Below, in pieces: positions 3,549-62,808 of a stretch of 64,000 nt of DNA. The notes beneath the pieces were generated by a model. That model saw only the letters and a program-made list of their open reading frames with translations. It was not told where the DNA came from and did not search any database. This DNA comes from Chloroflexota bacterium (GTDB taxonomy: Bacteria; Chloroflexota; Anaerolineae; Anaerolineales; UBA11858): contig JABGRQ010000199.1 of the NCBI GenBank assembly GCA_018648225.1, positions 6,606-70,605 of the forward strand. The letters are read 5' to 3'. The stretch's first letter is position 1; every line of letters starts with the position of its first letter. Both the position numbers and the translations under genes were made by a program.

Positions 3549-4505
3549 TTATCGATGTAAAAATTCAAAGAGCCGATGATAAATCCAATACAGGATGTCT
3601 TCGGCGAGCTGCCATTTCAAAATCCACGGGCGGTTGCGCTGACGTTCATCGAGGCTGGTCGTTGGTATGCCCTGAGCGAATTCTGCCTCCGAGAGCCGAT
3701 TGCCCAAATGCTGCACCCACCACTCTGGCGTAGACAGGCGCAAATAGCCCTGATCGTTGATCGCCACATCCAGCAGACGCACTTGCCCCATCGGGCGCTT
3801 GTTGGGGATTGGCAAAACGCTGCGCAAGGCCGCCGCAGGAGCGACAAACTGAAAATGACTCGCCCCAACGTAATAGCGCTGGTCTTCATACGTCAGCCGC
3901 AAATCTGTAACTGAGTCGAAATGGGCACGGGCTTTTTCTTCGCTGGCCCCCAAACTGCGCGAATGCCGAAAATAATCTTCCCAGGGGAGGAATTTTCCCT
4001 GCTCAATCTGAACGCCATTTTTCTCGGCCCAGGCCACAGTGCTGGTGGCATATTCCGGCGGACTCCACATGGGCATACCGGTGACCATGCCGATCTCTGG
4101 GAACATATCAAGTACTTTAACCTGCGCCGAAAGCCAGCCGGGATAATAGTACACATCGCTGTCGGCGTAGGCAATAATTTCGCCGGGGGCCGCGCCAAAA
4201 ATAGCGTTCCAGGCCCCTGCTTTGCCGACGTTTTTTTCGGAAAGCAGCAGATATTGAATGCGCCCTGTGGCCTGCATTTCGAGCAGATATTGGCGCACTT
4301 CCGGGCAACTGGCGTTGTCAAAAACCATCAAATCATATTCCATCTGCGTATGTTGCCACAGGCTGTTGAAACACAGCTTGAGAATATCGATGCTTTGGGC
4401 GAAGTAACCGCTCGTCACCGGGATATAAGTCACGGTCGCAACGGTCACACGCGCCGGTTTAGGGCTTTCTTCAACAAATTTTGCGGGGTTTTGTCCGATA
4501 CGCAA
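3549..4505 (-). CDS. family 2 glycosyltransferase (paralog 1 of 3)
   Basis: TVATVTYIP...LMVFDNASCPE...AYADSDVYYYPGW (DxD). TTG start with GGAG 9 nt upstream. The N-terminus (M)RIGQNPAK aligns with the ATG starts of the paralogs at 7676 and 8698. Confidence 0.8.
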   Translation of the reverse strand: MRIGQNPAKFVEESPKPARVTVATVTYIPVTSGYFAQSIDILKLCFNSLWQHTQMEYDLMVFDNASCPEVRQYLLEMQATGRIQYLLLSEKNVGKAGAWNAIFGAAPGEIIAYADSDVYYYPGWLSAQVKVLDMFPEIGMVTGMPMWSPPEYATSTVAWAEKNGVQIEQGKFLPWEDYFRHSRSLGASEEKARAHFDSVTDLRLTYEDQRYYVGASHFQFVAPAAALRSVLPIPNKRPMGQVRLLDVAINDQGYLRLSTPEWWVQHLGNRLSEAEFAQGIPTTSLDERQRNRPWILKWQLAEDILYWIYHRLFEFLHR

Positions 4506-8710: not shown

Positions 8711-8774
8711 ACCGCAGATGCACGCCGATAAACGCAGATAAAAAACATCCGCGTGCATCTGCGTTCATCAGTGG
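8711..8774. repeat. U-family composite hairpin (CGCAGAT units), copy 1
   Basis: ACCGCAGATGCACGCCGATAAACGCAGAT AAAAAAC ATCCGCGTGCATCTGCGTTCATCAGTGG. Confidence 0.85.
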
Positions 8775-12779: not shown

Positions 12780-12850
12780 CACCACAAAGACACAAAGGCA
12801 CGAAGGAGATAAATAACATCTCCTTTCTTTGAGTCTTCGAGCCTTGGTGG
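12780..12850. repeat. R-family composite hairpin, copy 5
   Basis: CACCACAAAGACACAAAGGCACGAAGGAGAT AAATAAC ATCTCCTTTCTTTGAGTCTTCGAGCCTTGGTGG. Confidence 0.9.
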
Positions 12851-15766: not shown

Positions 15767-15815
15767 GGTTGAATGTTGAAAGTTGAAGGCTACAAACAAC
15801 CTTCAACTTTCAACC
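15767..15815. repeat. S-family composite hairpin (GTTGAAG units), copy 1
   Basis: GGTTGAATGTTGAAAGTTGAAGGC TACAAAC AACCTTCAACTTTCAACC. Confidence 0.85.
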
Positions 15816-15821
15816 TATAAC

Positions 15822-21057: not shown

Positions 21058-21085
21058 ATCAACTCCACAAGTATTATTTTTTTCT

Positions 21086-21128
21086 CACCACAAAGACACA
21101 AAGCTTTTTTTCTTCGTGTCTTCGTGGT
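21086..21128. repeat. R-family composite hairpin, copy 6 (short)
   Basis: CACCACAAAGACACAAAG CTTTTTTT CTTCGTGTCTTCGTGGT. Confidence 0.9.
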
Positions 21129-21138
21129 AGATGTTCTT

Positions 21139-26116: not shown

Positions 26117-26977
26117 TTAAACCATATCCGCAAATGTACGTTCCATGCGACGGAAATAGAACAAGCCGGAGACCAGCACCACAATCGCCACGCCGACCGA
26201 AATCGCCATGGTAACAGATGCCGAAGGGTCTAACTCTATGCCAAGCAGCGCCCAGCGGAAACCATCCACCGCCCCCGCCATTGGGTTGAGGGCGTAGATC
26301 AACTTCCAGGTTCCGGTGATATACCCGGCAGAGTAGGCTACGGGTGTGAGGTATTTCCACATTTCAGTGATAAAAGGCAGCATATAGCCAACATCGCGGT
26401 ATAGCACATTCAGTGAAGAGAACCACAATCCAACACCTAGCGCCGTAATCATGGTCAACAACAAGAAGAGCGGCAGCGTCCAAATGGCCGGGGTCAGGGG
26501 AATTTTATAGTAAAACAACATCCCGATGAGAACCAAGAAAGCGATGAAAAAATCTACCAGTCCACTGAGTACTGTTGATATGGGAATCACCAAACGCGGG
26601 AAGTAGATTTTGGTAATCATATTACGATTGGAGACCATCGAGCGCCCGGTATCGTTCATTGCTTTGGAAAATAACTGCCAGGGCAAAAGCGCCGCGTAGG
26701 TAAAGACCGTGTAAGGAACACCTTCTGAATCCAGATTCGCCAATTGACCAAATATCAACGCGTAGACGAGCATCGACATTACCGGACGAATAATTGCCCA
26801 GGCCATCCCCAGAACTGTTTGTTTGTAGCGCACTTTAATATCGCGCCAAGTGAGAAAGAAAATTAACTCACGATAACGCCACAAATCGCCCAGATTCAAT
26901 GCCGTCCAGCCGCGCGTGGGGCGCAGGAGGATCGTTTCGGCAGGGGCCGTGATGGGAGTAGGGGAAGTTTCAGTCAT
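26117..26977 (-). CDS. wzm: ABC-2 type glycan exporter permease
   Basis: LWRYRELIFFLTWRDIKVRYKQTVLGMAWAII...KIYFPRLVIP with 6 hydrophobic segments. Confidence 0.85.
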   Translation of the reverse strand: MTETSPTPITAPAETILLRPTRGWTALNLGDLWRYRELIFFLTWRDIKVRYKQTVLGMAWAIIRPVMSMLVYALIFGQLANLDSEGVPYTVFTYAALLPWQLFSKAMNDTGRSMVSNRNMITKIYFPRLVIPISTVLSGLVDFFIAFLVLIGMLFYYKIPLTPAIWTLPLFLLLTMITALGVGLWFSSLNVLYRDVGYMLPFITEMWKYLTPVAYSAGYITGTWKLIYALNPMAGAVDGFRWALLGIELDPSASVTMAISVGVAIVVLVSGLFYFRRMERTFADMV

Positions 26978-26980
26978 AAG

Positions 26981-27050
26981 GGTTGAAGGTTAAAAATTGA
27001 AGGTTGAAGGTTGAAGGTATATAAAATTTTCAACCTTCAACCTGTAACCT
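26981..27050. repeat. S-family composite hairpin, copy 2
   Basis: GGTTGAAGGTTAAAAATTGAAGGTTGAAGGTTGAAGGT ATATAAAATTTT CAACCTTCAACCTGTAACCT. Confidence 0.85.
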
Positions 27051-27060
27051 TAAACTCGTA

Positions 27061-29102
<2,042 letters not shown>

Positions 29103-29197
29103 ATTTTTTTCCTTCTATTCAACAACCAGGAAACCATGTTTTTTCCTGCAATCCAGACTCCCTAACAAAGAAATTGTTTAGCTTTGAACTGAAAGAG

Positions 29198-29254
29198 GCC
29201 GAAAAAAGGGGTGTGCGTGGGGGCTGCGCCCCCACGCACACCCCTTTTTTCGGC
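29198..29254. terminator. bidirectional intrinsic-terminator-like perfect palindrome
   Basis: GCCGAAAAAAGGGGTGTGCGTGGGGGC TGC GCCCCCACGCACACCCCTTTTTTCGGC. 27-bp perfect stem, 3-nt loop, with A6/T6 tracts flanking the GC core on both strands. Confidence 0.75.
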
Positions 29255-29311
29255 ATTTTCTTTGCGAAGACATTAGCCTGAGCAGTTACCAAATACTAAC
29301 TCAATCCTGCT

Positions 29312-33672: not shown

Positions 33673-33688
33673 AGTATCCAAATTTTTA

Positions 33689-33750
33689 ACCACAGATGAA
33701 CGCAAATGAACGCTGATTTTTTATCCGCGTTTATCGGCGTTCATCTGCGG
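33689..33750. repeat. U-family composite hairpin, copy 2
   Basis: ACCACAGATGAACGCAAATGAACGCTGAT TTTTT ATCCGCGTTTATCGGCGTTCATCTGCGG. Confidence 0.85.
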
Positions 33751-33758
33751 TTTCCTTC

Positions 33759-35725: not shown

Positions 35726-35806
35726 AACGCAAGGACGCAAAGGGACGCAGGCGCAGAGATTTGCTTTATTTTCCTTTGCGTCTCTGCAGCTTTGCGCCTT
35801 TGCGTT
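35726..35806. repeat. Q-family composite hairpin (CGCAAAG units), copy 1
   Basis: AACGCAAGGACGCAAAGGGACGCAGGCGCAGAG - loop - CCTTTGCGTCTCTGCAGCTTTGCGCCTTTGCGTT. Confidence 0.85.
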
Positions 35807-37327: not shown

Positions 37328-37428
37328 AACGCAATACCCCAAAGGGCACAGGTGGCGCAAAGGTGCTAAGTCGCGAAGCGCTTTTTATTTTCTTCTTTTG
37401 CATCTTTGCTCCTTAGCGGCTTTGCGTT
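37328..37428. repeat. Q-family composite hairpin, copy 2, with conserved 22-nt box
   Basis: AACGCAATACCCCAAAGGGCAC ... GGCGCAAAGG ... GCGGCTTTGCGTT. Confidence 0.8.
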
Positions 37429-37433
37429 AAAAA

Positions 37434-40052
37434 TTACGGAATGTCGTCGCAAGATAGCTCAGACGACGAGCGCAGGGTAGTATACCCGTCTTCGTTGTGC
37501 AGGACAACCAGCCGGGCCGAGATGTAGTCATCGGCGCGGCAACCCAGGACGAGGACATCGGCAGCGTGGGGAAAGTAAGCTGGGGCTTCGTCGAGGGGCA
37601 TGACAATATTGGCGTGCGAGACCGTCAACAGAACAAAGCCCAAACGGCGATAATCACGCGGCGAGAAAGCCGTCCATTCGTTGCCGGGTTCGCCTTCGTT
37701 GGGCAGGTAAAAGCGCGGGTAGAGGGCACGCCCTTCTAGCAATGTAGCGCGCTCGTCTTCGAGCAAGGCTTCCACCGAGGGGAGAATCGGCTCGATTTCG
37801 GAGATCAACTCGAAAGTCGTGCGAATATCCGCCGGGAAAGGAGAATCAAGCCGAGGGATGAGGGCTTCCATCATTAACGGACTAAATCCCAGAGCCAGAA
37901 AAATCAATCCAAGAAAAATGGTTGAAGGTTGAAGGGTATAGGTTGAAATGCGTCGGACGTTCGATGCTGGATATCTGACAAAAGCGCCGGGGTCGCGCTG
38001 AATATAGAACCGCAGCCAAACGGCACCCTGACCCAAACCAATCGAGAGATATAGCAGCACCACCCAGTCGGCGGGGAGCAGCAGCCGCCAGCCGGAGTAG
38101 CGGCCCACGGCGGTGCTGAGGATATAAATCAGCGCCACGCCCAACGGCAACCAACCGATAAGTTGATTTCGACGAAAGGCCGCGCTCAGGCCAAGCGCCA
38201 GCATCCCCAAATTGAGGGCCAGCATGAGGGTGTTTTCAGTGGTGAGTGCGTCTTTCCAACCCTCCCAAAAGGGCTGAGCGCCAACATAGGCTTTAGGAGA
38301 GCAACAATCATCCCACAGATCGTCGGCTTGCGTGCGCCAGTAGGGGAATAGGTCACTCTCGGCGGCCTGCACGACCCAAGGAGAGAGCGGCAGGGCAAGC
38401 AGGGCTTCGACCCAATTATGGGCAAAATGGCGCGTAATGAATGTAGTCACGTAACCAGGGTTAGCGCGCACAAATCCGGAGAGATAGGCATCCACGCGTT
38501 GGGCAAATTCAGCGTCGCTTTCGCCAGAGTTGCGTACAATGCGGCTCTCTCCAGGTGTAAGGCTGTACTGTTGGGTCAGGAAGGCGTTTTGGGATGGATC
38601 ATTAAGGGAAAATTGGCCGATGAGTTGATAGCTGCGCCACAACCAGGGGAGCAGGGTGAGCGTCAGACCAAGAATGAAGAATGCTGAATGCTGAATGCTG
38701 AATGCTGAATGGCGGGTGGCGGGCGACGAAGGTTGAAGGTTAAAGGTTGAAGGTCGAAGGGATACAAGCAGAATAAGCACGATCAGCGCCGGAATGAAAA
38801 CAACGATCTGCGGGCGGACGAGCAGGAGCAAGCCAAGCACACCGCCAATGGCGAGGGGTGCGGCACGACGGCGATCGGGCTGGCGCAGCCAGTAGACGAT
38901 GATGGCGGTCAGCAGCACCACACCGAGCGTGGCGGGCAGGTCGGACATGAGCAATTTGGCATTAGAAACGCCGATGGTACCGGAAAGCATGAGGGCGTTG
39001 CGCTCGCGCAGAATAATCAGTGCGGCGGCAATTACCCCGGAGACGCGCAAATGCAACGTTTTCGTAATCCAATAGAGGCCAACCGGCAGCAAAGCGAGCA
39101 CCATCATTTGCAAGCGGGCAATCTGGGCATAATCTTCCCCGGCGAGCCAATGCAGCCACGTCAGAAAAACCGAATAGAGCGGCTTACGAGCGACACCGTC
39201 AAAACCATCACCCATCAGCAAACGTTGGGCGGCGATGTCGTGCATGGTCGCGTCGGAGTGGGGATAATATGCGAAGTTCGGCGGCTGCGGCGCGGGGGCA
39301 AAATAGTCGGCGCGCATGGGTTGTTGATTCCAAAGGAAGGCAGCCACACCCCAAATAAGGAGACTGATAAAAATATCGAAGAGTAAGGGTTTGGGGAGAT
39401 TTTCCGTTGGCAAAGCCAGCCAGACAAATGCCACCAGCCATACCAACCCAACGGATGCAACCGTCAGCGGAACCCCCGGAGGGTCCCAGCCAATGGCATC
39501 GGGCTTCACCCCGAGACCGGTGAGGGCAACGATGGCCCAAATGAAGAGAAGCAGGCCAAAGATGATGCCACCAAGGCGTACTACTTTGCCATCTAGAAAA
39601 TCAACCCATCCGTGACGCAGCAGAGGGAGGATGATTAGGTTTTGCAGGCTGAACGTGGTGACAAGAAGAAACAGAGGTACCAAACGAGTCAGAAGGCCAC
39701 CTATGTAGGGATCGGCAACAATGTGTGCAAGATGCCAGAGTTGAGAACCAAACATAAATCCGAGCAATGAGCCGAACAACGCAAGCCCGTAAAGCCAGCG
39801 ATTGCTTACCCATGTAAGAATGCGCTCACGCAAAGATGATGAACGACGCACAAGCACAGCGGTGCAGGCCACGACAAGTACCCATAAGAGTAAGGCGATG
39901 GCCAGCAATGCGCGGGTTTTAGAAATGCCTAAAATCCAGGCGCTGGCGGCTTCGCTGGGTTGGGCAAAGAGCAGCACCAGCGCGGCCAATGCACCCGCCG
40001 CAGCGATCCAGAAGTAGATTTGAAGTAGCGTTGAAGAAGAAAGTTTTTTCAT
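37434..40052 (-). CDS. large polytopic GT-C-like membrane protein (paralog A1)
   Basis: ~872 aa. Loop YPHSDATMHDIAAQRLLMGDGFDGVARKPLYSVFL (acidic loop plus RKPLY box). About 50 percent identical by eye to the 40141-42762 product. Confidence 0.55.
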   Translation of the reverse strand: MKKLSSSTLLQIYFWIAAAGALAALVLLFAQPSEAASAWILGISKTRALLAIALLLWVLVVACTAVLVRRSSSLRERILTWVSNRWLYGLALFGSLLGFMFGSQLWHLAHIVADPYIGGLLTRLVPLFLLVTTFSLQNLIILPLLRHGWVDFLDGKVVRLGGIIFGLLLFIWAIVALTGLGVKPDAIGWDPPGVPLTVASVGLVWLVAFVWLALPTENLPKPLLFDIFISLLIWGVAAFLWNQQPMRADYFAPAPQPPNFAYYPHSDATMHDIAAQRLLMGDGFDGVARKPLYSVFLTWLHWLAGEDYAQIARLQMMVLALLPVGLYWITKTLHLRVSGVIAAALIILRERNALMLSGTIGVSNAKLLMSDLPATLGVVLLTAIIVYWLRQPDRRRAAPLAIGGVLGLLLLVRPQIVVFIPALIVLILLVSLRPSTFNLQPSSPATRHSAFSIQHSAFFILGLTLTLLPWLWRSYQLIGQFSLNDPSQNAFLTQQYSLTPGESRIVRNSGESDAEFAQRVDAYLSGFVRANPGYVTTFITRHFAHNWVEALLALPLSPWVVQAAESDLFPYWRTQADDLWDDCCSPKAYVGAQPFWEGWKDALTTENTLMLALNLGMLALGLSAAFRRNQLIGWLPLGVALIYILSTAVGRYSGWRLLLPADWVVLLYLSIGLGQGAVWLRFYIQRDPGAFVRYPASNVRRISTYTLQPSTIFLGLIFLALGFSPLMMEALIPRLDSPFPADIRTTFELISEIEPILPSVEALLEDERATLLEGRALYPRFYLPNEGEPGNEWTAFSPRDYRRLGFVLLTVSHANIVMPLDEAPAYFPHAADVLVLGCRADDYISARLVVLHNEDGYTTLRSSSELSCDDIP
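37920..37948. repeat. S-family units in frame inside CDS
   Basis: GGTTGAAGGTTGAAGGGTATAGGTTGAAA encodes ISTYTLQPST. Confidence 0.7.
38672..38761. repeat. T-family and S-family heptamer tracts in frame inside CDS
   Basis: GAATGAA (GAATGCT)x4 GAATGGC, a 15-nt spacer, then CGAAGGTTGAAGGTTAAAGGTTGAAGGTCGAAGG. Encodes PSTFNLQPSSPATRHSAFSIQHSAFF. Confidence 0.85.
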
Positions 40053-40061
40053 CAAAAAATA

Positions 40062-40119
40062 CTGCAAAGACACCAAGACTCAAAGCTATTTTTCTTGGTG
40101 TCTGTGCATCTTCGTGGTG
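40062..40119. repeat. R-family composite hairpin, copy 8 (degenerate)
   Basis: CTGCAAAGACACCAAGACTCAAAG CTATTTTT CTTGGTGTCTGTGCATCTTCGTGGTG. Confidence 0.8.
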
Positions 40120-40140
40120 AAATTTTTGTCTTTTTGTCCA

Positions 40141-42762
40141 TTATCGAAAGACCGGGCATAGGGCTTCAATTTCAGCCGAAGCCGTGTAAAGTTGTTCGCG
40201 CTTATCGTGCACATATACCGCCAGAGCGTAGACAACGTCATCTGCTTCGCAGCCGATGAGAGTCACGTCAGTCGCGTTGGGGAAATAGTCCGGTGAGGTT
40301 TCATGCAGAAGTATGATTTGAGCATCATTCGGGCCGACTAATGTAAAGCCTAAACGGGGAAAATCTCTGGGGATATAAGCGCTCCACCCTTCGCCGGATT
40401 CGCCAAAACCAGTTTCGTAGTAACGGGGATATAGGGCGCGTCCCTGTAGGATAACGATCTCATCCTTTTCCAGACTCTGCTGGAGGGTAGGCTCATCCAG
40501 TGCAGGAAATTCTTCGAAGAAATTCATCTCTTCAAGTAGGGCAACCCGCTCTGAGGTCGAAAGTGCCGCGTAGTGCTGGGGAATCAAATTTTCCACCATC
40601 AATGGAGAAATCCCAAAACTCAGTAAAATTATCCCAATCGCCATATTCAGCTTCCAAGCGCTTCGATAGTTGCTTTTGACAGGTTGAACACTTTCTTCGA
40701 TCCAATCAGAGCTGTTCACACTCGATAAATACTCAAAAAGCCAAATTGTCACTTGGGCGATACCGATGGCAAGGTATACAAACTCTACCCAGTGAATAGG
40801 TGTGACAAAACGCCAGCCGGAGCGGCGCGCAACTGCCGTGCTCAGGCTGTAAGCAAGGCTCATAACGAGGGGGATCAGGCCAACAATGCCATATTGCGCC
40901 CAGGCCGCACCCAGGCCAATGGCGATCAGCGCCAGGTTTGCGCCCAGCATAGCCACCATGATGGGCGGCAAATGCCCATTCCATCCCGACCAAAACGGCA
41001 TTTGGGCAACATACTGGTTGACCGTGCAGCAATCTTCCCAAAGGCGCTGTAAATCGCCTGTTTTTGCGTTGAAGGCGACCATGTTGGGGTCTTGCAGATA
41101 CCACGGCGTGAGGGGCAGGGTGAACAGTAGCCCCAATTCGTTATTCAAAAAATGCGCCAGCACAAAATCAACCACAACGCCGGGATGGCTGAGCGTAAAA
41201 TCGCGCATATAGGCGTTGGCGCGCGCAACATATTGTTTTTCGGTTTCACCGGGCAGGCGCGTGAACTCGATTTGACCGATTTCTTCGGTGTACAATTCGG
41301 CGTGAAAAACAACCTGCGCAGGCTCGTTGAGCGTAAATTGCCCCGTCAACTGATAACTGCGCCACATCCAGGGGAAAATGACGAGCATCAGCCCCAGCGC
41401 AAACAAGCCTGCCGGGGCAATGGCCGCACGCCATTTACGATAAAACGCAACCGCAATCGCCCCAAGCACCACGGGCAGCAAAAAAATGCTGTTCGAGCGG
41501 ATCATCACCGTAATGCCAAAAACACCCCCGGCCAGCAGCGGGAACCAGCGCCAGCGCTCCGGGTTTTGCAGCCAGCGCATCACCAGCCACGACAACAAAA
41601 CCACGCCAAACGCGGCAAACATATCCGGCATCATTAGCTTCGAGTTGGAAACCCGAATATCCGCAGAAAGCGCAATGGCATTTTTCTCTTGCAAAATGAA
41701 CAACAGCGCGGCAATCGTCCCCGTAAAACGCCAGTGCAGCGATTTTGTCAGCCAATACACCATCACCGGGAGCATGGCCAAAAACAAAATTTGCAAATTG
41801 ACAATGGCGTTATAGCTATCGCCCACAACCGCGTGCGCAAAAACCAAAAACAACACATAAAAAGGCTTGCGATCAATACCCGAAAACCCTTCGCCCACCA
41901 GCACCCGGTGCGCGCCGCTATCATACATAGCCGCATCCGAGTAAGGATACAACTCAGCGTTTGGCGGTCGTTCCATCGGGGCATAAAAAGCCCTGTCCAG
42001 CGGGACATTGCGCCACAAATAGAATGCGGCCAAAAAAAGTACCAGACTGAGAAGAATATCAAAAAAACGGGTTAAAAGTTCGGATTTCTGGTTGGAGAGA
42101 GACCATTCTGCAAAAAAGATGAACATCCCCAAAAGCCCGGCGATAGCAATCTGGATGGAAACGAGCGGCGCTCCGGGTGGGTCCCAGGCGAAAGCATCGG
42201 GCTTAATCCCCAGGCCGGTTGCAGCAATCATGCCCCACAGTAGAAGCAACACACCAAAAATACCCGCACTCCAACGAAAAACGCGCTTTTGTCCATCACT
42301 CCACACCTGACGATCTTCATAGCGCAAAACAGGCAATATAAAAATGAATTGCCAACTCATCACCCCGCCCCAGGCGATCAGCGGAACCAGACGCGTCAAC
42401 ACGCCATGCAGAAATTCATCGGTGAGTGTGCCGGAGAGCCATAACAGATGACCAGCAATAACGCCACCGAGCAGGAAAAAGAACACTGTCGGATAGTAAA
42501 ATTCACCACGCTGAGCAAGAGATTGCAGAGGCGTGAGGGTTTCTGGTTTGCGCCAGAAGGTAAATGCGACCAACACAAAAACGGCGATCCCGGCTAGCAG
42601 CATAGTCGCCAACGCAAAGCGCGTTTTTGAAAGCCCTAAGAGCCAGGCATTTTGCACGTCGCCGGGGATGCGCAGCAAGTAAATGAGCGCGGCAACCCCC
42701 TCGAGGGCAAAAATGCTGGCGAAGATGCTGATGGTTTTATTGCGCCCACCGATTTGGTTCAT
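40141..42762 (-). CDS. large polytopic GT-C-like membrane protein (paralog A2)
   Basis: ~873 aa. YPYSDAAMYDSGAHRVLVGEGFSGIDRKPFYVLFL. Shares PWMWRSYQLTGQFTLNEP and LWEDCC motifs with A1. Confidence 0.55.
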   Translation of the reverse strand: MNQIGGRNKTISIFASIFALEGVAALIYLLRIPGDVQNAWLLGLSKTRFALATMLLAGIAVFVLVAFTFWRKPETLTPLQSLAQRGEFYYPTVFFFLLGGVIAGHLLWLSGTLTDEFLHGVLTRLVPLIAWGGVMSWQFIFILPVLRYEDRQVWSDGQKRVFRWSAGIFGVLLLLWGMIAATGLGIKPDAFAWDPPGAPLVSIQIAIAGLLGMFIFFAEWSLSNQKSELLTRFFDILLSLVLFLAAFYLWRNVPLDRAFYAPMERPPNAELYPYSDAAMYDSGAHRVLVGEGFSGIDRKPFYVLFLVFAHAVVGDSYNAIVNLQILFLAMLPVMVYWLTKSLHWRFTGTIAALLFILQEKNAIALSADIRVSNSKLMMPDMFAAFGVVLLSWLVMRWLQNPERWRWFPLLAGGVFGITVMIRSNSIFLLPVVLGAIAVAFYRKWRAAIAPAGLFALGLMLVIFPWMWRSYQLTGQFTLNEPAQVVFHAELYTEEIGQIEFTRLPGETEKQYVARANAYMRDFTLSHPGVVVDFVLAHFLNNELGLLFTLPLTPWYLQDPNMVAFNAKTGDLQRLWEDCCTVNQYVAQMPFWSGWNGHLPPIMVAMLGANLALIAIGLGAAWAQYGIVGLIPLVMSLAYSLSTAVARRSGWRFVTPIHWVEFVYLAIGIAQVTIWLFEYLSSVNSSDWIEESVQPVKSNYRSAWKLNMAIGIILLSFGISPLMVENLIPQHYAALSTSERVALLEEMNFFEEFPALDEPTLQQSLEKDEIVILQGRALYPRYYETGFGESGEGWSAYIPRDFPRLGFTLVGPNDAQIILLHETSPDYFPNATDVTLIGCEADDVVYALAVYVHDKREQLYTASAEIEALCPVFR

Positions 42763-42783
42763 CAAAAATCTCCAGAAAAATAT

Positions 42784-42861
42784 AACCACAAAAGGTACGA
42801 AGACACAAAGGAATGCAGCTATTTACCGATGTCAACTTCGAGTTTTGGTGTCTTGATGGTG
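42784..42861. repeat. R-family composite hairpin, copy 9 (degenerate)
   Basis: AACCACAAAAGGTACGAAGACACAAAGG - loop - CTTCGAGTTTTGGTGTCTTGATGGTG. Confidence 0.8.
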
Positions 42862-42868
42862 AAGATCA

Positions 42869-45076
42869 TTACGGATAATACGAACAATCGCCAATCTCTT
42901 CACGCGGGACAAAGAACCAGACATGCGTCTTGTCTTTCGAGTATTTAGGTTTATAGTAACAGTACAACGGTTCTGTAACCCACTGTACCCAGGTATCGTT
43001 CTCAGCATCCCATTGCTCTTCTTCGCGAGAGTAACGGATGCGCTGCGGATCAGTGATAATCAGGCCGAAGCGCTGCTCGGCGAGATCGCGGTAAAACGGC
43101 ATCAAATATTCCATATCTTGCGCCAGAGCGCGATCCATGACCTGTTTTTTTTCATATTCCGGCACCAGAGGAATATCCACCACGCCGAAGGTAATCAGTT
43201 GACGTTGATCCATAAAGAGGACTTCGCCGCCTTGCGCGACCACATGCTCGGATTCAGTGATGAGCAAGTCGATGGTGTGATCGACATACTGCTGCTCGGG
43301 GAGTTCTAGCGGCATGGCATCCATGAGGGGTAAGAAGGCGGGAATCAAAGCCAGGAATAAAAAGAGTATCTTGACTCCCGAGGTTTGTTCCTGCAAATTC
43401 GCGAGAATCTGTCCGCCGCCACGTTCCCACGCCGCCGCGGCAACAAAGACCAGACTAACAAGGAATATATCCAGGTTGTGCAGGTTGCTGCCACCGCCAA
43501 TTTTAACGCTAATAATCAGCCCGATGCCCAAAAAGCCCAGCAACCCGCCAGCTACGGCCAGTTTTTGCCAGATGTTGAGCTGCCAATTTGGACGCGGATC
43601 AACGCGGACACTTGCGCCTGCGGTGTCAAGTGCAGGTGTGAACGCGGATTTTTTGTCATGTATCCTGCGTTTATCTGTGTTTATCTGTGGTTCTTTATTT
43701 TGTGACTGTATTGCCAAGTAAATCAATAAAATGACAAGCGGCAAAACGGCTAATGCCAATTCTAAAACGATGCCCAACCCGTTGGTGGGGTTGGGCCACA
43801 GGCGCTCCCAGAGCAAGGGCTGATCAGTGAGAAAGGAATTGCTGCCGCTGCTGACGGCTTCGACCGTGTCGGCGGTATCGGTGAAAATTGCCGCGGGGGC
43901 AGGCATCGGCAAGTTGACCTGCACCCCACCCTGAGCTGCGTTCGCCAATCCCAGTTGTCGCGAGATGCGCTCCCAGCCGCGTTTAATTCCCACGCCGCCA
44001 AATAATCCCGCCAAACCATATAATCCAACCTGCAGCCATGAACGCCAGGGCATACGCTCGCCGGGGGATGTTTCATCATCGAGCAAGGCTACCAACACTG
44101 CCCAAACTGCCGGGGCAATCATCCAGGTCAGGCGGCTGAGTTGAGCATAATATCCGGCCAGATAAATCAGGGGCAGGGCAATCCATAACGCTTTGCGGCG
44201 CGCTCCGGCGACGAGAATGGCGCTCAGAACGAGGGGGGTGTAAATGGGGCCTTGATAGAGGAACAGGAAGAGCCACACGCCCGCCCAGGACCAATCTTTG
44301 CGGAGGGCGGGGAGCGCGCGCAACGCTAACCAACCCAGAAACAGATACGGCACAGTGAAAACCAACGCCGACCACAGACGCACGCCTTCAAGCGTCACGC
44401 CGCCAAATAAGAAAGGCAACCCCCACAATGACTGCCGCCCAATATCAATATACGCTTCGAAACGCTGATTGAGCGGATAATCGTAGAAGCGTCGCCCGTA
44501 AAGCCAGGAATAATCCCAGATGCGGTTGCCCTCCGACCAGGTTAATGAGAGGGGGTAATCAACCACGGTGACGAACTCGACAGCGAAGACAATCACCGCG
44601 CCCACAGCGACAAAACTTAGCATCAAAGGCCGCCAACGGATCAGATGACGCGGATGACGTGTGGCAAATAGCGCCATCGCCAGCCCTACAGCTATCAGGA
44701 AGGCCAGCCGAAAGGCCGCACCGGTGATTTTATAGCCAAGCGGGGTGTAGAGAAAAATTTTAGCGGGCAGAAAGGCCAGCGCGGCGAAAAACAGCCAGCG
44801 CAGGGGGCCAAGTTTGTCACGGCTGCGCGCCAGTGCCACCACAAGGTCATCGGTTTTCTGTGGCAGCCATAAACTTGTCAGACCCAACGCCACCGCCAAC
44901 GTGCCAAAGAGCATCATCCCGGCCAGCGGCAGGCCCCAGGTGATGGTGAATTTGCCGATCCAGTTCTGCGTGCCTTCAACGACTGCGTAGAAATCGCTCC
45001 CGGCAAAAACCAGCAAGAGCAACACGGCAAACGTAACCAGTAAACGCGCCATCAACGCGCGATCAAATGGCTTCAT
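42869..45076 (-). CDS. polytopic membrane protein with C-terminal soluble domain (paralog B1), putative membrane glycosyltransferase
   Basis: 735 aa. LSLTWSEGNRIWDY loop, SVKIGGGSNLHNLD motif, and a C-terminal GGEVLFMDQRQLITFG...RFGLIITDP domain shared with 58792-60852. Confidence 0.45.
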   Translation of the reverse strand: MKPFDRALMARLLVTFAVLLLLVFAGSDFYAVVEGTQNWIGKFTITWGLPLAGMMLFGTLAVALGLTSLWLPQKTDDLVVALARSRDKLGPLRWLFFAALAFLPAKIFLYTPLGYKITGAAFRLAFLIAVGLAMALFATRHPRHLIRWRPLMLSFVAVGAVIVFAVEFVTVVDYPLSLTWSEGNRIWDYSWLYGRRFYDYPLNQRFEAYIDIGRQSLWGLPFLFGGVTLEGVRLWSALVFTVPYLFLGWLALRALPALRKDWSWAGVWLFLFLYQGPIYTPLVLSAILVAGARRKALWIALPLIYLAGYYAQLSRLTWMIAPAVWAVLVALLDDETSPGERMPWRSWLQVGLYGLAGLFGGVGIKRGWERISRQLGLANAAQGGVQVNLPMPAPAAIFTDTADTVEAVSSGSNSFLTDQPLLWERLWPNPTNGLGIVLELALAVLPLVILLIYLAIQSQNKEPQINTDKRRIHDKKSAFTPALDTAGASVRVDPRPNWQLNIWQKLAVAGGLLGFLGIGLIISVKIGGGSNLHNLDIFLVSLVFVAAAAWERGGGQILANLQEQTSGVKILFLFLALIPAFLPLMDAMPLELPEQQYVDHTIDLLITESEHVVAQGGEVLFMDQRQLITFGVVDIPLVPEYEKKQVMDRALAQDMEYLMPFYRDLAEQRFGLIITDPQRIRYSREEEQWDAENDTWVQWVTEPLYCYYKPKYSKDKTHVWFFVPREEIGDCSYYP
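43590..43690. repeat. complete U-family element in frame inside CDS
   Basis: Minus strand: CCACAGATAAACACAGATAAACGCAGGAT...AAAAAATCCGCGTTCAC...GTCCGCGTTGATCCGCGTCC. Encodes PQINTDKRRIHDKKSAFTPALDTAGASVRVDPRP. Confidence 0.8.
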
Positions 45077-55413: not shown

Positions 55414-55472
55414 CACCACAAAGGCACGAAGAAACAAAGAAAAACTCTTCGCGCCTTTGTGCCTTCGTGGTG
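55414..55472. repeat. R-family composite hairpin, copy 12
   Basis: CACCACAAAGGCACGAAGAAACAAAG AAAAACT CTTCGCGCCTTTGTGCCTTCGTGGTG. Confidence 0.9.
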
Positions 55473-61778: not shown

Positions 61779-61844
61779 CAGAAATGCAGAACGATGAATG
61801 ATGAATGCAGAATATTCACCGTTCAGCATTCATCATTCATCATT
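61779..61844. repeat. T-family composite hairpin (GAATG units)
   Basis: CAGAAATGCAGAACGATGAATGATGAATGCAGAAT ATTCACC GTTCAGCATTCATCATTCATCATT. Confidence 0.85.
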
Positions 61845-61851
61845 TTTCTCC

Positions 61852-62808
61852 CTACTCCTTACTTCCTACATTCAGTTTACGCCGCACGGTATACGTCGGC
61901 TTCTTCTGCGATTCGTGATAAGTACGTACCTGTAATTCGGCAATCAGGCCCATGAGAATAGACTGGAAGCCCATAATCAGGAGAATCAGGCTGACTGGAA
62001 AAAAAGGCGATTCGAGTACAGAGACCAATGTCACAATGCGCCGAATCACCAAAAAAGCCAGCAAGCCCGTTCCAGCGGCCATCATAGCCATACCGGGGCC
62101 GCCAAAAAGATAATTGGGTTTGTGTCCGTAGCTAATCAAAAATTTGACTGTCAGTAAATCGAGGATCACCTTGAGAATTCGCTCCAGACCATACTTGGTT
62201 TTACCAAATTCGCGCGGGTGATGTCGCACGGGGACTTCGATAATTTTTGCGCCAACATATCCGGCATAGGCGGGAATAAAACGGTGCATCTCGCCATACA
62301 GGCGGAAGCCGGTAATCACATCGCGGCGATAGGCTTTAAGCGTGCAGCCGTAATCGTGCAGTTTAACGCCCGTAACCCACGAGATCAGTCCATTGGCAAT
62401 GCGCGAGGGCAGCGTGCGCGTGAAAAAAGTATCCTGACGCTTGATGCGCCATCCACTGACCACATCGTAGCCTTCATCCATTTTTTCGAGCATCATCGGG
62501 ATATCGGCGGGATCATTCTGCATATCGGCATCCATCAAGACAATCACATCACCCATCGCATAATCCAGCCCGGCCGCAATCGCTGCCGTCTGGCCGAAAT
62601 TGCGCCGCAGGGCAACCACACGCGTGTGCTTCGTATCCGCCTCGGCCAATTCGGCCAGCGCATCGGGGCTGCCATCCGTGCTGCCATCATCCACATATAC
62701 AATTTCCCAAGGATACGAAATCACGCCAAGCGCTTCATTCAGAGCGGCATGTAATTTCGGCAGGCTCTCTTTTTCATTGTAGACAGGAATTACAACAGAT
62801 AGTTCCAT
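61852..62808 (-). CDS. GT2 polyprenyl-phosphate glycosyltransferase (GtrB/ArnC/DPM1-like)
   Basis: LSVVIPVYNEKESL...IVYVDDGSTDGS...LMDADMQNDP...GWRIKRQD plus two C-terminal TM helices. Confidence 0.85.
   Translation of the reverse strand: MELSVVIPVYNEKESLPKLHAALNEALGVISYPWEIVYVDDGSTDGSPDALAELAEADTKHTRVVALRRNFGQTAAIAAGLDYAMGDVIVLMDADMQNDPADIPMMLEKMDEGYDVVSGWRIKRQDTFFTRTLPSRIANGLISWVTGVKLHDYGCTLKAYRRDVITGFRLYGEMHRFIPAYAGYVGAKIIEVPVRHHPREFGKTKYGLERILKVILDLLTVKFLISYGHKPNYLFGGPGMAMMAAGTGLLAFLVIRRIVTLVSVLESPFFPVSLILLIMGFQSILMGLIAELQVRTYHESQKKPTYTVRRKLNVGSKE

What the first reader, a model, noticed from the sequence alone, without database searches (positions are those of the whole stretch)
38672..38761. 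Intergenic-type heptamer tracts sit in frame inside a GT-C-like gene and are absent from its tandem paralog
On the coding (minus) strand, 38761 to 38672 reads CCTTCGACCTTCAACCTTTAACCTTCAACCTTCG, then 15 nt, then CATTCAGCATTCAGCATTCAGCATTCAGCATTCTTCATTC. This gives PSTFNLQPSSPATRHSAFSIQHSAFF. The same units build intergenic hairpins S (15767, 26981) and T (61779). The adjacent paralog (40141-42762) aligns on both sides (PWLWRSYQLIGQFSLNDP versus PWMWRSYQLTGQFTLNEP) but is roughly 10-15 residues shorter across this stretch and has no repeat units there, so this looks like an in-frame repeat insertion. This resembles Rickettsia palindromic elements inside ORFs. On the plus strand there are four perfect plus two imperfect GAATGCT heptamers. 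Gain or loss of one unit would shift the frame, so the tract could act as a slipped-strand on/off switch for this enzyme. A second S-type tract lies in frame at 37920-37948 (ISTYTLQPST).
Basis: partly seen in the sequence, partly recalled or inferred. Interest (0 to 1): 0.7.

Follow-up and report, generated by a model that had tools for sequence, protein, structure and literature searches.

The report
Length-variable heptamer array inside a gene
A short loop of a membrane glycosyltransferase-like protein in an uncultured Anaerolineae bacterium is encoded by a run of thirteen 7-base repeats, and natural populations carry two versions that differ by exactly three repeats (seven amino acids); this is a length polymorphism that keeps the reading frame, and no switched-off version was seen.

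Summary
On the minus strand, 38760..38670 is one continuous 13-unit heptamer array in a single register: 5 CCTTCAA-type units, 2 CRCCCGC units, 4 perfect CATTCAG units and 2 CATTCTT units. It lies in frame in an 880-aa GT-C-like gene (37434..40076).

The array encodes the loop between two transmembrane helices. That loop is 14 aa longer than in the tandem paralog and in 21 more distant homologs of the 24-sequence alignment.

The same unit types build intergenic hairpins in the window.

New here: contigs from about 20 assemblies are 0-2 mismatches from the window over 7.5-22.6 kb. They carry either 4.7 or 1.7 CATTCAG copies, a 21-bp (7-aa) difference. Both alleles occur in at least one single sample.

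No out-of-frame copy number was seen, so the tract is mutable but the on/off-switch reading is unsupported.

The same loop carries other repeat types in relatives, including full in-frame hairpins, so it is a permissive hotspot.

S and T units are stop-free only in the orientation present. That is consistent with one arm, not a hairpin, sitting in the gene.

Verdict: a coding heptamer VNTR filling a permissive loop; a new variant of known kinds; moderate interest.

The parts
38670..38760 (-). Complete 13-unit heptamer array in one register. It encodes residues about 440-469 (LRPSTFNLQPSSPATRHSAFSIQHSAFFIL) of the GT-C-like protein.
   Evidence: Period-7 self-identity is 0.57-1.0 across the whole block and about 0.2 in the flanks.
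38726..38760 (-). S block: CCTTCGA CCTTCAA CCTTTAA CCTTCAA CCTTCGT (imperfect). It is invariant in all contigs examined.
38712..38725 (-). Two intermediate units, CGCCCGC CACCCGC.
38679..38711 (-). T block: CATTCAG x4 plus CATTC, perfect. Three of the four units (21 bp, HSAFSIQ) are absent in the short allele.
38670..38683 (-). Two degenerate T units, CATTCTT CATTCTT. They run into the next transmembrane helix.
37918..37947 (-). Second in-frame S-type tract (ISTYTLQPST), before another transmembrane helix. It is conserved in orthologs at 70-87% identity over that segment.
37434..40076 (-). Host gene: a multi-pass membrane protein, GT-C/PMT_2-like. It is 880 aa from the TTG start; gene callers use the GTG at 40073 (879 aa) or the ATG at 40052 (872 aa).
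40141..42789 (-). Tandem paralog (38% identity) with the short, repeat-free loop.
15768..15821 (.). Intergenic hairpin built of S-type units (GTTGAAN / NTTCAAC).
26973..27064 (.). Intergenic hairpin built of S-type units, including a perfect TTGAAGG x3. It is identical in another sample.
   Evidence: L018.
61790..61844 (.). Intergenic hairpin built of T-type units (GATGAAT / ATTCATC).

Best explanation
The tract is a coding heptanucleotide VNTR. It has taken over a short, insertion-tolerant loop, probably cytoplasmic, between two transmembrane helices of a GT-C-like membrane enzyme. The gene sits in a surface-glycan gene cluster of an uncultured Anaerolineae bacterium.

This genome, and those of its relatives, generates arrays of 7-10-nt units. 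In intergenic spacers, paired arrays form hairpins. In this loop, one 13-unit array survives in the only orientation without stop codons.

The perfect CATTCAG block changes copy number by misalignment between repeats (replication slippage or deletion between direct repeats). Because the unit is 7 nt, only steps of three units (21 bp, 7 aa) preserve the protein. The common alleles are accordingly 1.7 and 4.7 copies.

The effect is a change in length of a low-complexity linker and helix extension. It is most likely neutral or nearly so, and is not gene switching.

- Shown: the array anatomy, its absence from the paralog and from distant homologs, two alleles in otherwise near-identical DNA, both alleles in one sample, and repeat turnover in the same loop in relatives.
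- Inferred: slippage as the mechanism, cytoplasmic location of the loop, and neutrality.
For: **Anatomy.** One array in one register. TRF gives 100% match for the T block.

**Extra relative to the family.** The 21 more distant homologs in alignment A1 and the tandem paralog all have the short loop. The window protein has +14 aa. Orthologs at 73-76% identity have +7 aa.

**Population data.**
- The first nine contigs have 0 mismatches over 2,585 nt of the gene outside the tract, and differ only by 4.7 versus 1.7 copies.
- One 22,619-nt comparison shows 0 mismatches and one 21-nt gap.
- Further contigs show 0-2 mismatches.
- Both alleles come from MEGAHIT and JGI assemblies. Logan and one SPAdes-style assembly also give the short allele.
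- Sample 3300028195 has one contig with each allele (L025 short, L033 long).
- In SRR7618778 one contig ends at the last base shared by the alleles and another starts at the first base shared again.

**No out-of-frame alleles.**

**Permissive hotspot.**
- The L001 ortholog loop is S-type only.
- The L002 ortholog loop is CCATTCG plus CTCTCCA blocks.
- The L002 paralog and P0006 carry full in-frame hairpins in the same loop.
- P0018 carries one at the second site.

**Stop filter.** TTGAAGG and CTGAATG arrays give stops in every frame, whereas CCTTCAA and CATTCAG give none. The 8-mer families are stop-free in both orientations, and those are the ones found as whole hairpins in frame.

**Loop context.** AF2 places helix 422-440, a loop at 441-453 (residues 442-452 below pLDDT 50) and helix 454-486. 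Hydropathy agrees.

**Stability of imperfect tracts.** The 76% ortholog cluster (867 aa in six of six full-length members called from the same start) has imperfect tracts and no length variation.
Against: - Only two alleles were seen. The data therefore also fit a single historical 21-bp indel separating two co-circulating strains, rather than ongoing high-rate slippage.
- Consensus assemblies cannot reveal minority out-of-frame variants.
- If the short allele is ancestral, as its length match to the L001 and L002 loops suggests, growth from 1.7 to 4.7 perfect copies cannot happen in one slippage step. It implies out-of-frame intermediates or some other mechanism.
- The cytoplasmic location of the loop rests only on the positive-inside rule.
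- Neutrality is untested. Both alleles recur in many samples, which could reflect selection.
- The origin of the array, and why it shares units with the hairpins, is unexplained.
Confidence: 0.6

Rival explanations
1. Slipped-strand on/off (phase-variation) switch. Gain or loss of single heptamers turns this glycan enzyme off and on, and the paralog or other enzymes cover the OFF state.
For: - The tract is a perfect non-triplet repeat inside an ORF.
- Copy number does vary in nature while the surrounding 22.6 kb is invariant.
- The gene lies in a surface-glycan cluster, the classic setting for contingency loci.
- A tandem paralog exists.
- If the 1.7-copy allele is ancestral, the 4.7-copy allele must have passed through frameshifted intermediates.
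Against: - Only the in-frame alleles 1.7 and 4.7 are observed across about 20 assemblies.
- No split gene appears in any neighbourhood shown or fetched from the 22 and 24 contigs read around the flanking genes.
- Predicted C-terminal frameshift products are not in the 15-billion-protein collection.
- No truncated fragment at about 100% identity appeared in the homology search.
- Four to five copies is short for high-rate slippage (general knowledge of contingency loci, not tested here).
Confidence: 0.12
2. A single ancient 21-bp indel marks two stable strains. The tract is not unusually mutable, and the dimorphism is an ordinary strain marker.
For: - Exactly two alleles were found, with no 7.7-copy or other in-frame variants.
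- Both alleles recur across many samples.
- Intergenic arrays in the 22.6 kb compared do not vary.
Against: - It is the only difference in 22.6 kb between alleles. No linked SNP distinguishes the two 'strains'.
- The difference falls exactly in the one long perfect array.
Confidence: 0.2
3. In-frame insertion of a mobile palindromic element (RPE/MITE/REP-like) that has since decayed to one arm.
For: - The units match the arms of intergenic hairpins.
- True in-frame hairpins occupy the same loop in P0006 and in the L002 paralog.
- The loop is longer than in the rest of the family.
Against: - The tract has no inverted repeat, and its RNA fold is weaker than shuffles (z = +1.26).
- The complementary arm would introduce stops in every frame.
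- No terminal inverted repeats or target duplications are evident.
- The array is in one register continuous with unit-like native codons, and the orthologs hold the same length with other units. This looks like in-situ unit turnover.
- Orthologous intergenic hairpins differ in sequence between relatives, which is unlike copies of one mobile element.
Confidence: 0.06
4. Assembly artefact: repeat collapse or expansion.
For: - Several contigs break at the tract.
Against: - Both alleles are produced by MEGAHIT and JGI pipelines, and the short allele also by Logan (k=31) and a SPAdes-style assembly.
- By inference, collapse of a 33-nt period-7 tract at k=21 could yield only 26 nt (3.7 copies), not 12 nt. 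The short allele contains junction k-mers that long-allele reads cannot supply.
- Contig breaks fall exactly at the allele divergence and convergence points, as expected for a true bubble.
Confidence: 0.02

Closest known systems
Simple-sequence-repeat contingency loci (for example Haemophilus or Neisseria tetramer tracts; the 7-bp repeats at H. influenzae hmw, PMC12721329)
   Same: - A perfect short-unit tandem tract associated with a surface-glycan gene.
- The unit length is not a multiple of three.
- Copy number differs between otherwise identical genomes.
   Different: - Only frame-preserving alleles (a three-unit step) are seen.
- The tract is short (1.7 or 4.7 copies).
- No OFF alleles were detected.
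- The host is a free-living, uncultured Anaerolineae, not a host-adapted pathogen.
Rickettsia palindromic elements and other in-frame MITE insertions (PMC10969869)
   Same: - Genome-wide non-coding-type repeat sequence is found in frame inside unrelated genes, in tolerated surface or loop positions.
- Relatives of this gene carry true in-frame hairpins in the same loop.
   Different: - This tract is a direct tandem array, not a palindrome.
- It is 91 nt made of 7-nt units, not a conserved element of about 100-150 bp.
- There is no evidence of transposition.
- Its length is polymorphic.
Cyanobacterial STRR and other over-represented heptameric SSRs (PMC4692102 and the works it cites)
   Same: - Dispersed tandem heptamers that are mostly intergenic, sometimes as inverted pairs able to form stem-loops.
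- The identical CCTTCAA unit forms arrays in Moorena.
- Length variation occurs between close relatives.
   Different: - The host phylum is Chloroflexota.
- Here the array is translated as part of a conserved enzyme.
- The units are not G-rich, so there is no G-quadruplex potential.
Tandem repeats creating disordered protein segments in Borg elements (PMC9879509)
   Same: - Recently formed perfect tandem repeats inside ORFs add low-complexity segments and evolve fast.
   Different: - Here the unit is 7 nt, so only every third step is viable. I did not open PMC9879509, and the unit lengths of coding repeats in Borgs are not checked here.
- This is a chromosomal bacterial gene.
REP / BIME intergenic palindromes (PMC12306157, PMC3733652). 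These are the closest match for the intergenic hairpins, not for the tract.
   Same: - Short hairpins lie in spacers between co-directional genes, at many copies per genome.
   Different: - The arms here are tandem arrays of variable 7-10-nt units rather than one conserved consensus.
- Orthologous spacers carry different sequences.
- No RAYT was examined.

Membership tests
SSR phase-variable (contingency) locus | Perfect tandem tract of a unit not divisible by three, inside the ORF | tested here: met
   CATTCAG x4.7 at 100% match, in frame.
SSR phase-variable (contingency) locus | Copy number differs among otherwise near-identical genomes | tested here: met
   1.7 versus 4.7 copies, with 0-2 mismatches in 7.5-22.6 kb.
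SSR phase-variable (contingency) locus | Both in-frame (ON) and out-of-frame (OFF) alleles occur in populations | tested here: not met
   No 2.7, 3.7 or 5.7 alleles and no split genes in any contig shown or fetched. This holds at consensus level only; minority variants were not testable.
SSR phase-variable (contingency) locus | High reversible switching rate | not testable with these tools
   Needs read-level or culture data.
RPE / MITE-type in-frame palindromic insertion | The element can fold as a palindrome or has terminal inverted repeats | tested here: not met
   Minimum free energy -19.4 versus a shuffle mean of -23.1, z = +1.26. Both blocks have the same polarity.
RPE / MITE-type in-frame palindromic insertion | Segment absent from homologs, and the reading frame is kept | tested here: met
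   +14 aa versus 21 more distant homologs and the tandem paralog.
RPE / MITE-type in-frame palindromic insertion | Near-identical copies of the whole element elsewhere in the genome | tested here: not met
   Only the unit types recur within the 64-kb window. The whole genome was not available.
STRR-type dispersed heptamer arrays | Tandem heptamers of a few unit types, dispersed and mostly intergenic | tested here: met
   S units at 4 loci and T units at 2 loci, with 3 of the 6 intergenic.
STRR-type dispersed heptamer arrays | Cyanobacterial host, as originally defined | tested here: not met
   Closest genomes are Anaerolineae MAGs. The same unit does occur in Moorena.
Coding VNTR (in-frame tandem-repeat length polymorphism) | Alleles differ by whole repeats and all keep the frame | tested here: met
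   872/873-aa versus 879/880-aa products that differ only by HSAFSIQ.
GT-C fold glycosyltransferase (PMT_2 / ArnT / STT3-like). This row concerns the host gene. | Pfam PMT_2 match at or above the gathering score | tested here: not met
   The window protein matches no family. The paralog scores 25.2 bits against a cut-off of 26.1. Fourteen of the 50 listed homologs carry a precomputed PF13231 hit.
GT-C fold glycosyltransferase (PMT_2 / ArnT / STT3-like). This row concerns the host gene. | Structural similarity to solved GT-C enzymes | tested here: inconclusive
   The top Foldseek hits are STT3, DPY19, AglB and PMT1/2 (probability 0.95-1.0), but E is 4e-3 to 0.14 and TM-score 0.21-0.34. No sequence match in the PDB or NCBIfam.
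GT-C fold glycosyltransferase (PMT_2 / ArnT / STT3-like). This row concerns the host gene. | Catalytic acidic residue in the first extracytoplasmic loop | not tested
   Invariant D193, D198, D275 and D280 are candidates. No assignment was made.

The most novel reading that the evidence does not exclude
Anaerolineae (and some cyanobacteria) may have an active, sequence-biased process that seeds and homogenises arrays of 7-10-nt units. Examples would be template switching at hairpins or a dedicated enzyme.

That process would write the same units into intergenic hairpins and into permissive loops of membrane proteins. The CATTCAG block would then be a true contingency tract. Its three-unit in-frame alleles would tune a surface-glycan enzyme, and its one-unit intermediates would transiently switch it off.
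Probability: 0.12. Interest if true: 0.75.

Novelty: new variant of a known kind. Interest (0 to 1): 0.5.

Why it matters
- It is a clean natural example of a non-triplet (7-nt) repeat array living inside a conserved enzyme. The only common polymorphism across more than 22 kb of a near-clonal environmental population is a three-unit, frame-preserving step. This shows directly how selection filters slippage products.
- It exposes a wider feature of these genomes for which my literature searches found no description. Almost every spacer holds a hairpin whose arms are tandem short units, and the same units recurrently invade the same loops of membrane proteins in different lineages.
- The stop-codon filter gives a simple, testable rule for which repeat families, and which orientation, can become protein sequence.
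- For metagenomics, the tract also breaks contigs. That is a practical marker of strain heterogeneity.

Tried and rejected
1. Two scans of metagenome contigs found nothing: a gapped pattern spanning all copy numbers, then a plain 26-mer. That collection lacks this population. The pattern itself works on the window and on the fetched loci.
2. A 446-aa gene upstream of the radical-SAM gene in JGI 3300072015 matched the C-terminal ORF predicted for a 5.7-copy frameshift allele. I rejected this reading. The partner fragment is 493 codons with no stop, and it sits on a different contig. The 88,414-nt contig begins inside the gene. This is a contig break at the tract, not a frameshift.
3. Exact look-ups of predicted C-terminal frameshift products and of contig-end fragments were all absent from the collection.
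4. Rfam gave no family in the window. PDB sequence search and NCBIfam gave nothing for the host protein.
5. A literature search for the unit sequences, and for Chloroflexi or Anaerolinea intergenic repeats, found no description. RepRanger lists Anaerolinea thermolimosa in a species table; the passage retrieved gives no repeat sequences.
6. An RNA hairpin within the tract is rejected.
7. The query (PSTFNLQ)x6 returned only tiny ORFs, mostly from Moorena, and no long proteins. It gives no census of in-frame cases.
Full report
**1. What is there**

Read on the minus strand, 38760..38670 is CCTTCGA CCTTCAA CCTTTAA CCTTCAA CCTTCGT CGCCCGC CACCCGC CATTCAG CATTCAG CATTCAG CATTCAG CATTCTT CATTCTT. That is thirteen heptamers in one register.

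Period-7 self-identity is 0.57-1.0 across the block and about 0.2 in the flanks.

TRF scores the CATTCAG block at 100% match (4.7 copies) and the CCTTCAA block at 88%. The 33-nt perfect run is the longest perfect period-7 run in the window. Period-7 arrays are five-fold enriched over shuffles.

The array is in frame in an 880-aa ORF (37434..40076) and reads LRPSTFNLQPSSPATRHSAFSIQHSAFFIL.

**2. The host gene and its setting**

Nearly all long ORFs in the window are on the minus strand. The neighbourhood encodes sugar epimerases, GT2 and GT4 transferases, a CMP-sugar-type transferase, methyltransferases and a B12/radical-SAM enzyme. It also encodes an ABC-2/Wzt exporter, a sulfotransferase and three large multi-pass membrane proteins. 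This is a surface-glycan cluster.

The closest genomes are uncultured Anaerolineae MAGs.

The GT-C assignment is plausible but not proven:
- The window protein has no Pfam hit. The paralog scores just below the PMT_2 cut-off.
- Fourteen of the 50 listed homologs carry a precomputed PF13231 hit.
- The AF2 model has mean pLDDT 71.8. Its best PDB matches are STT3, DPY19, AglB and PMT1/2, but the scores are weak.
- Sequence searches of the PDB and NCBIfam found nothing.

**3. Extra relative to the family**

The tandem paralog (38% identity) aligns on both sides and lacks 14 residues.

In a 24-sequence alignment, the 21 more distant homologs (41-55% identity) and the tandem paralog all have a short loop of the form L-F-F-R-R-P-x-x-G-L. 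The window protein has +14 aa, and its 76% ortholog has +7 aa.

AF2 and hydropathy place the array between helix 422-440 and helix 454-486:
- The S block is a low-confidence loop.
- The T block is modelled as an N-terminal extension of the next helix.

The preceding loop (RQPDRRR) and the family loop (F-R-R-P) are positively charged. By the positive-inside rule the loop is therefore probably cytoplasmic. This is an inference.

**4. Shared units**

CCTTCAA-type dimers occur 12 times against 0.41 expected. They are found in the two intergenic hairpins (15768-15821 and 26973-27064), in this array and in the second in-frame tract at 37918-37947.

CATTCAG-type dimers occur 7 times against 0.70 expected. 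They are found here and in the hairpin at 61790-61844, whose units are CATTCAT.

Most intergenic spacers of 35 nt or more contain a hairpin whose arms are tandem 7-, 8- or 10-nt units. Most have the purine-rich arm 5' on the mRNA strand and an A/T-rich loop.

The tract itself forms no structure (z = +1.26). Rfam has nothing in the window.

**5. Why only one arm is present**

A heptamer array passes through all three frames every 21 nt. TTGAAGG and CTGAATG arrays contain TGA in every frame. CCTTCAA and CATTCAG arrays contain no stop. Only the orientation actually present can be translated.

The 8-mer families (CACRAAGA, CGCAAAGG) are stop-free on both arms. Whole hairpins of 8-mer-type units (CACAAAGA, CACAGAGA) are the ones found in frame in relatives.

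**6. The loop is a hotspot**

- The L001 ortholog loop is CCATTCG CCCCAAA CTTTTCA ACCTTCA ACCTGCA ACCTTCA... (S type).
- The L002 ortholog loop is CCTTCCG CCATTCG CCATTCG CAATCCG CTTCTCA CTCTCCA CTCTCTA CTCTCCA. These are different blocks in the same register, and the total length equals that of L001 and of the short allele.
- The L002 tandem paralog carries an in-frame CACAAAGA-type hairpin in the same loop.
- P0006 carries an in-frame insert of 87 nt (29 aa) that forms a nested hairpin a few residues upstream; the 159-nt stretch folded around it has a free energy of -57 kcal/mol.
- P0018 carries an in-frame hairpin at the position of the second S tract.
- The second S tract is conserved in orthologs at 70-87% identity over that segment.

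**7. Population data (the key new result)**

The 90% cluster of the window protein holds five members of 872 or 879 aa. Two of the 872-aa members, P0052 and P0054, differ from the rest only by loss of HSAFSIQ. The third, P0051, is 872 aa because it is called from the ATG start, and it keeps the segment.

At the DNA level:
- Nine contigs from different assemblies are identical to the window over 2,585 nt of the gene. They differ only in having 4.7 or 1.7 CATTCAG copies.
- Over the full fetched stretches (3.6-8.6 kb), and in one 22,619-nt comparison, there are 0 mismatches and one 21-nt gap.
- Further contigs show 0-2 mismatches.

Allele census by sample:
- Short allele: ERZ27237645, ERZ27245997, ERZ27250210, ERZ27250222, ERZ27250255, ERZ27250163, ERZ27250149, ERZ4200950, SRR7617886, JGI 3300024259, JGI 3300028195.
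- Long allele: the window, ERZ27246003, ERZ27250140, ERZ23491424, JGI 3300024256, JGI 3300028274, JGI 3300028195, and SRR7617950 (cut within the tract).

Both alleles coexist within single samples:
- JGI 3300028195 has one contig with each allele (L025 short, L033 long).
- In SRR7618778, one contig ends at ...CCCGC CATTCAG CATTC, the last base common to both alleles. Another contig starts at CATTCAGCATTCTTC, the first base common again.
- JGI 3300072015 has two contigs that overlap across the tract.

By inference, a collapse artefact at k=21 could only produce 3.7 copies. The short allele needs junction k-mers that long-allele reads cannot provide. Both alleles are therefore real.

**8. Is it a switch?**

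No 2.7-, 3.7- or 5.7-copy allele was seen. No split gene appears in any neighbourhood shown or fetched from the 22 and 24 contigs read around the flanking genes. No truncated fragment at about 100% identity appeared in the homology search. No predicted C-terminal frameshift product is in the protein collection.

An apparent 446-aa frameshift product turned out to be a gene cut by a contig end.

The related cluster with imperfect tracts shows no length variation.

So the tract is mutable, but the evidence is for a frame-preserving dimorphism.

Two caveats apply:
- Consensus contigs hide minority variants.
- The short allele has the same loop length as both orthologs, so the long allele may be derived. 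Reaching four perfect copies from 1.7 copies needs more than one slippage step, through out-of-frame intermediates.

**9. Origin**

Insertion of hairpin-derived sequence and in-situ amplification cannot be told apart. The array abuts the native S-L-R-P codons (TCC CTT CGA CCT), which already resemble a unit. Orthologs keep register and length while changing units, which looks like unit turnover within an array.

Orthologous intergenic spacers also hold hairpins of different sequence in relatives. That is unlike copies of one mobile element.

The CCTTCAA unit also forms long arrays, translated as tiny ORFs, in Moorena cyanobacteria and in one Tepidiforma.

**10. Comparison with known systems**

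The tract works like a coding VNTR. It fails the defining test of a contingency locus, because no OFF alleles were found. It fails that of an RPE or MITE, because it has no palindrome and no whole-element copies. It matches STRR-type heptamer arrays in form, but not in host.

Heptameric SSRs are known to be over-represented in bacteria (PMC4692102). In-frame repeat insertions are known from Rickettsia (PMC10969869).

My literature searches found no description of three features here:
- Intergenic-type units are translated in a conserved enzyme loop.
- An orientation rule is set by stop codons.
- A three-unit dimorphism occurs in a near-clonal wild population.

**11. Verdict**

- Observation: confirmed.
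The segment is extra, sits in a loop and varies in copy number. The switch and the RPE analogy are not supported.
- Best explanation: a coding heptamer VNTR in a permissive loop (confidence 0.6).
- Novelty: a new variant of a known kind.
- Interest: 0.5.

Noticed in passing
window-wide, e.g. 556-616, 8713-8763, 12783-12849, 21058-21138, 33688-33752, 35735-35805, 55417-55469: Most intergenic spacers of 35 nt or more between the co-directional genes hold a hairpin whose arms are tandem 7-, 8- or 10-nt units (CACRAAGR, CGCAAAGR, CGCAGATRAA, GGTTGAA). Most have the purine-rich arm 5' on the mRNA strand and an A/T-rich loop. My literature searches found no description.
   Followed up: partly
window 43665-43698 (gene 42869-45076, minus strand): The 735-aa membrane protein carries an in-frame repeat of the 10-mer type (ACAGATAAAC; QINTDKRRIHDKKSAF...SVRVDPRP). 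Its 86%-identical ortholog in L002 differs exactly in this segment.
   Followed up: partly
L014 about 2800-2905 (P0006 residues 440-468): A 53%-identical homolog has an in-frame insert of 87 nt (29 aa) that forms a nested hairpin. The insert lies in the same transmembrane loop, a few residues upstream of the window's array. The 159-nt stretch folded around it has a free energy of -57 kcal/mol.
   Followed up: yes
L002 about 3815-3925 (tandem paralog) and L017 (P0018 residues about 675-705): In-frame hairpins of 8-mer-type units (CACAAAGA in L002, CACAGAGA in P0018; HKDTKDT..., HREHRE...LCSPCLRV). One lies in the same loop of the paralog in a related MAG. The other lies at the second S-tract position of another homolog.
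   Followed up: yes
L001 2290-2460; L002 5850-6003; window 37330-37433 and 40077-40140: Orthologous intergenic spacers in related MAGs also contain hairpins, but of different sequence. The hairpin position is conserved while the sequence is not.
   Followed up: partly
proteins P0062-P0181: The peptide (PSTFNLQ)n, which is CCTTCAA arrays translated, occurs in about 170 tiny ORFs of 74 aa or fewer. Most are from Moorena cyanobacteria; one is from Tepidiforma and one from Acinetobacter. The same heptamer unit therefore forms arrays in distant phyla.
   Followed up: no
window 61848-61869: A CTCCCTA/CTCCTTA heptamer tract lies directly after the T-type hairpin. A similar CTCTCCA block follows the CCATTCG block in the L002 ortholog's loop.
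   Followed up: no
window 29193-29259: A hairpin with 32-nt arms (94% complementary) and a 3-nt loop lies in a 209-nt spacer. It is G+C-rich with an A/T run, looks like a terminator, and differs from the tandem-unit hairpins.
   Followed up: no
contig ends: L025, L026, L027, L033, L034; JGI 3300072015 (two contigs): Several independent assemblies break their contigs at or within the heptamer tract. Contigs of 28.9 kb and 88.4 kb from one sample meet there.
   Followed up: yes
window 26997-27018: The only other perfect heptamer run (TTGAAGG x3.1, in an intergenic hairpin arm) is identical in a second sample (L018). Variation was seen only in the longer coding tract.
   Followed up: partly
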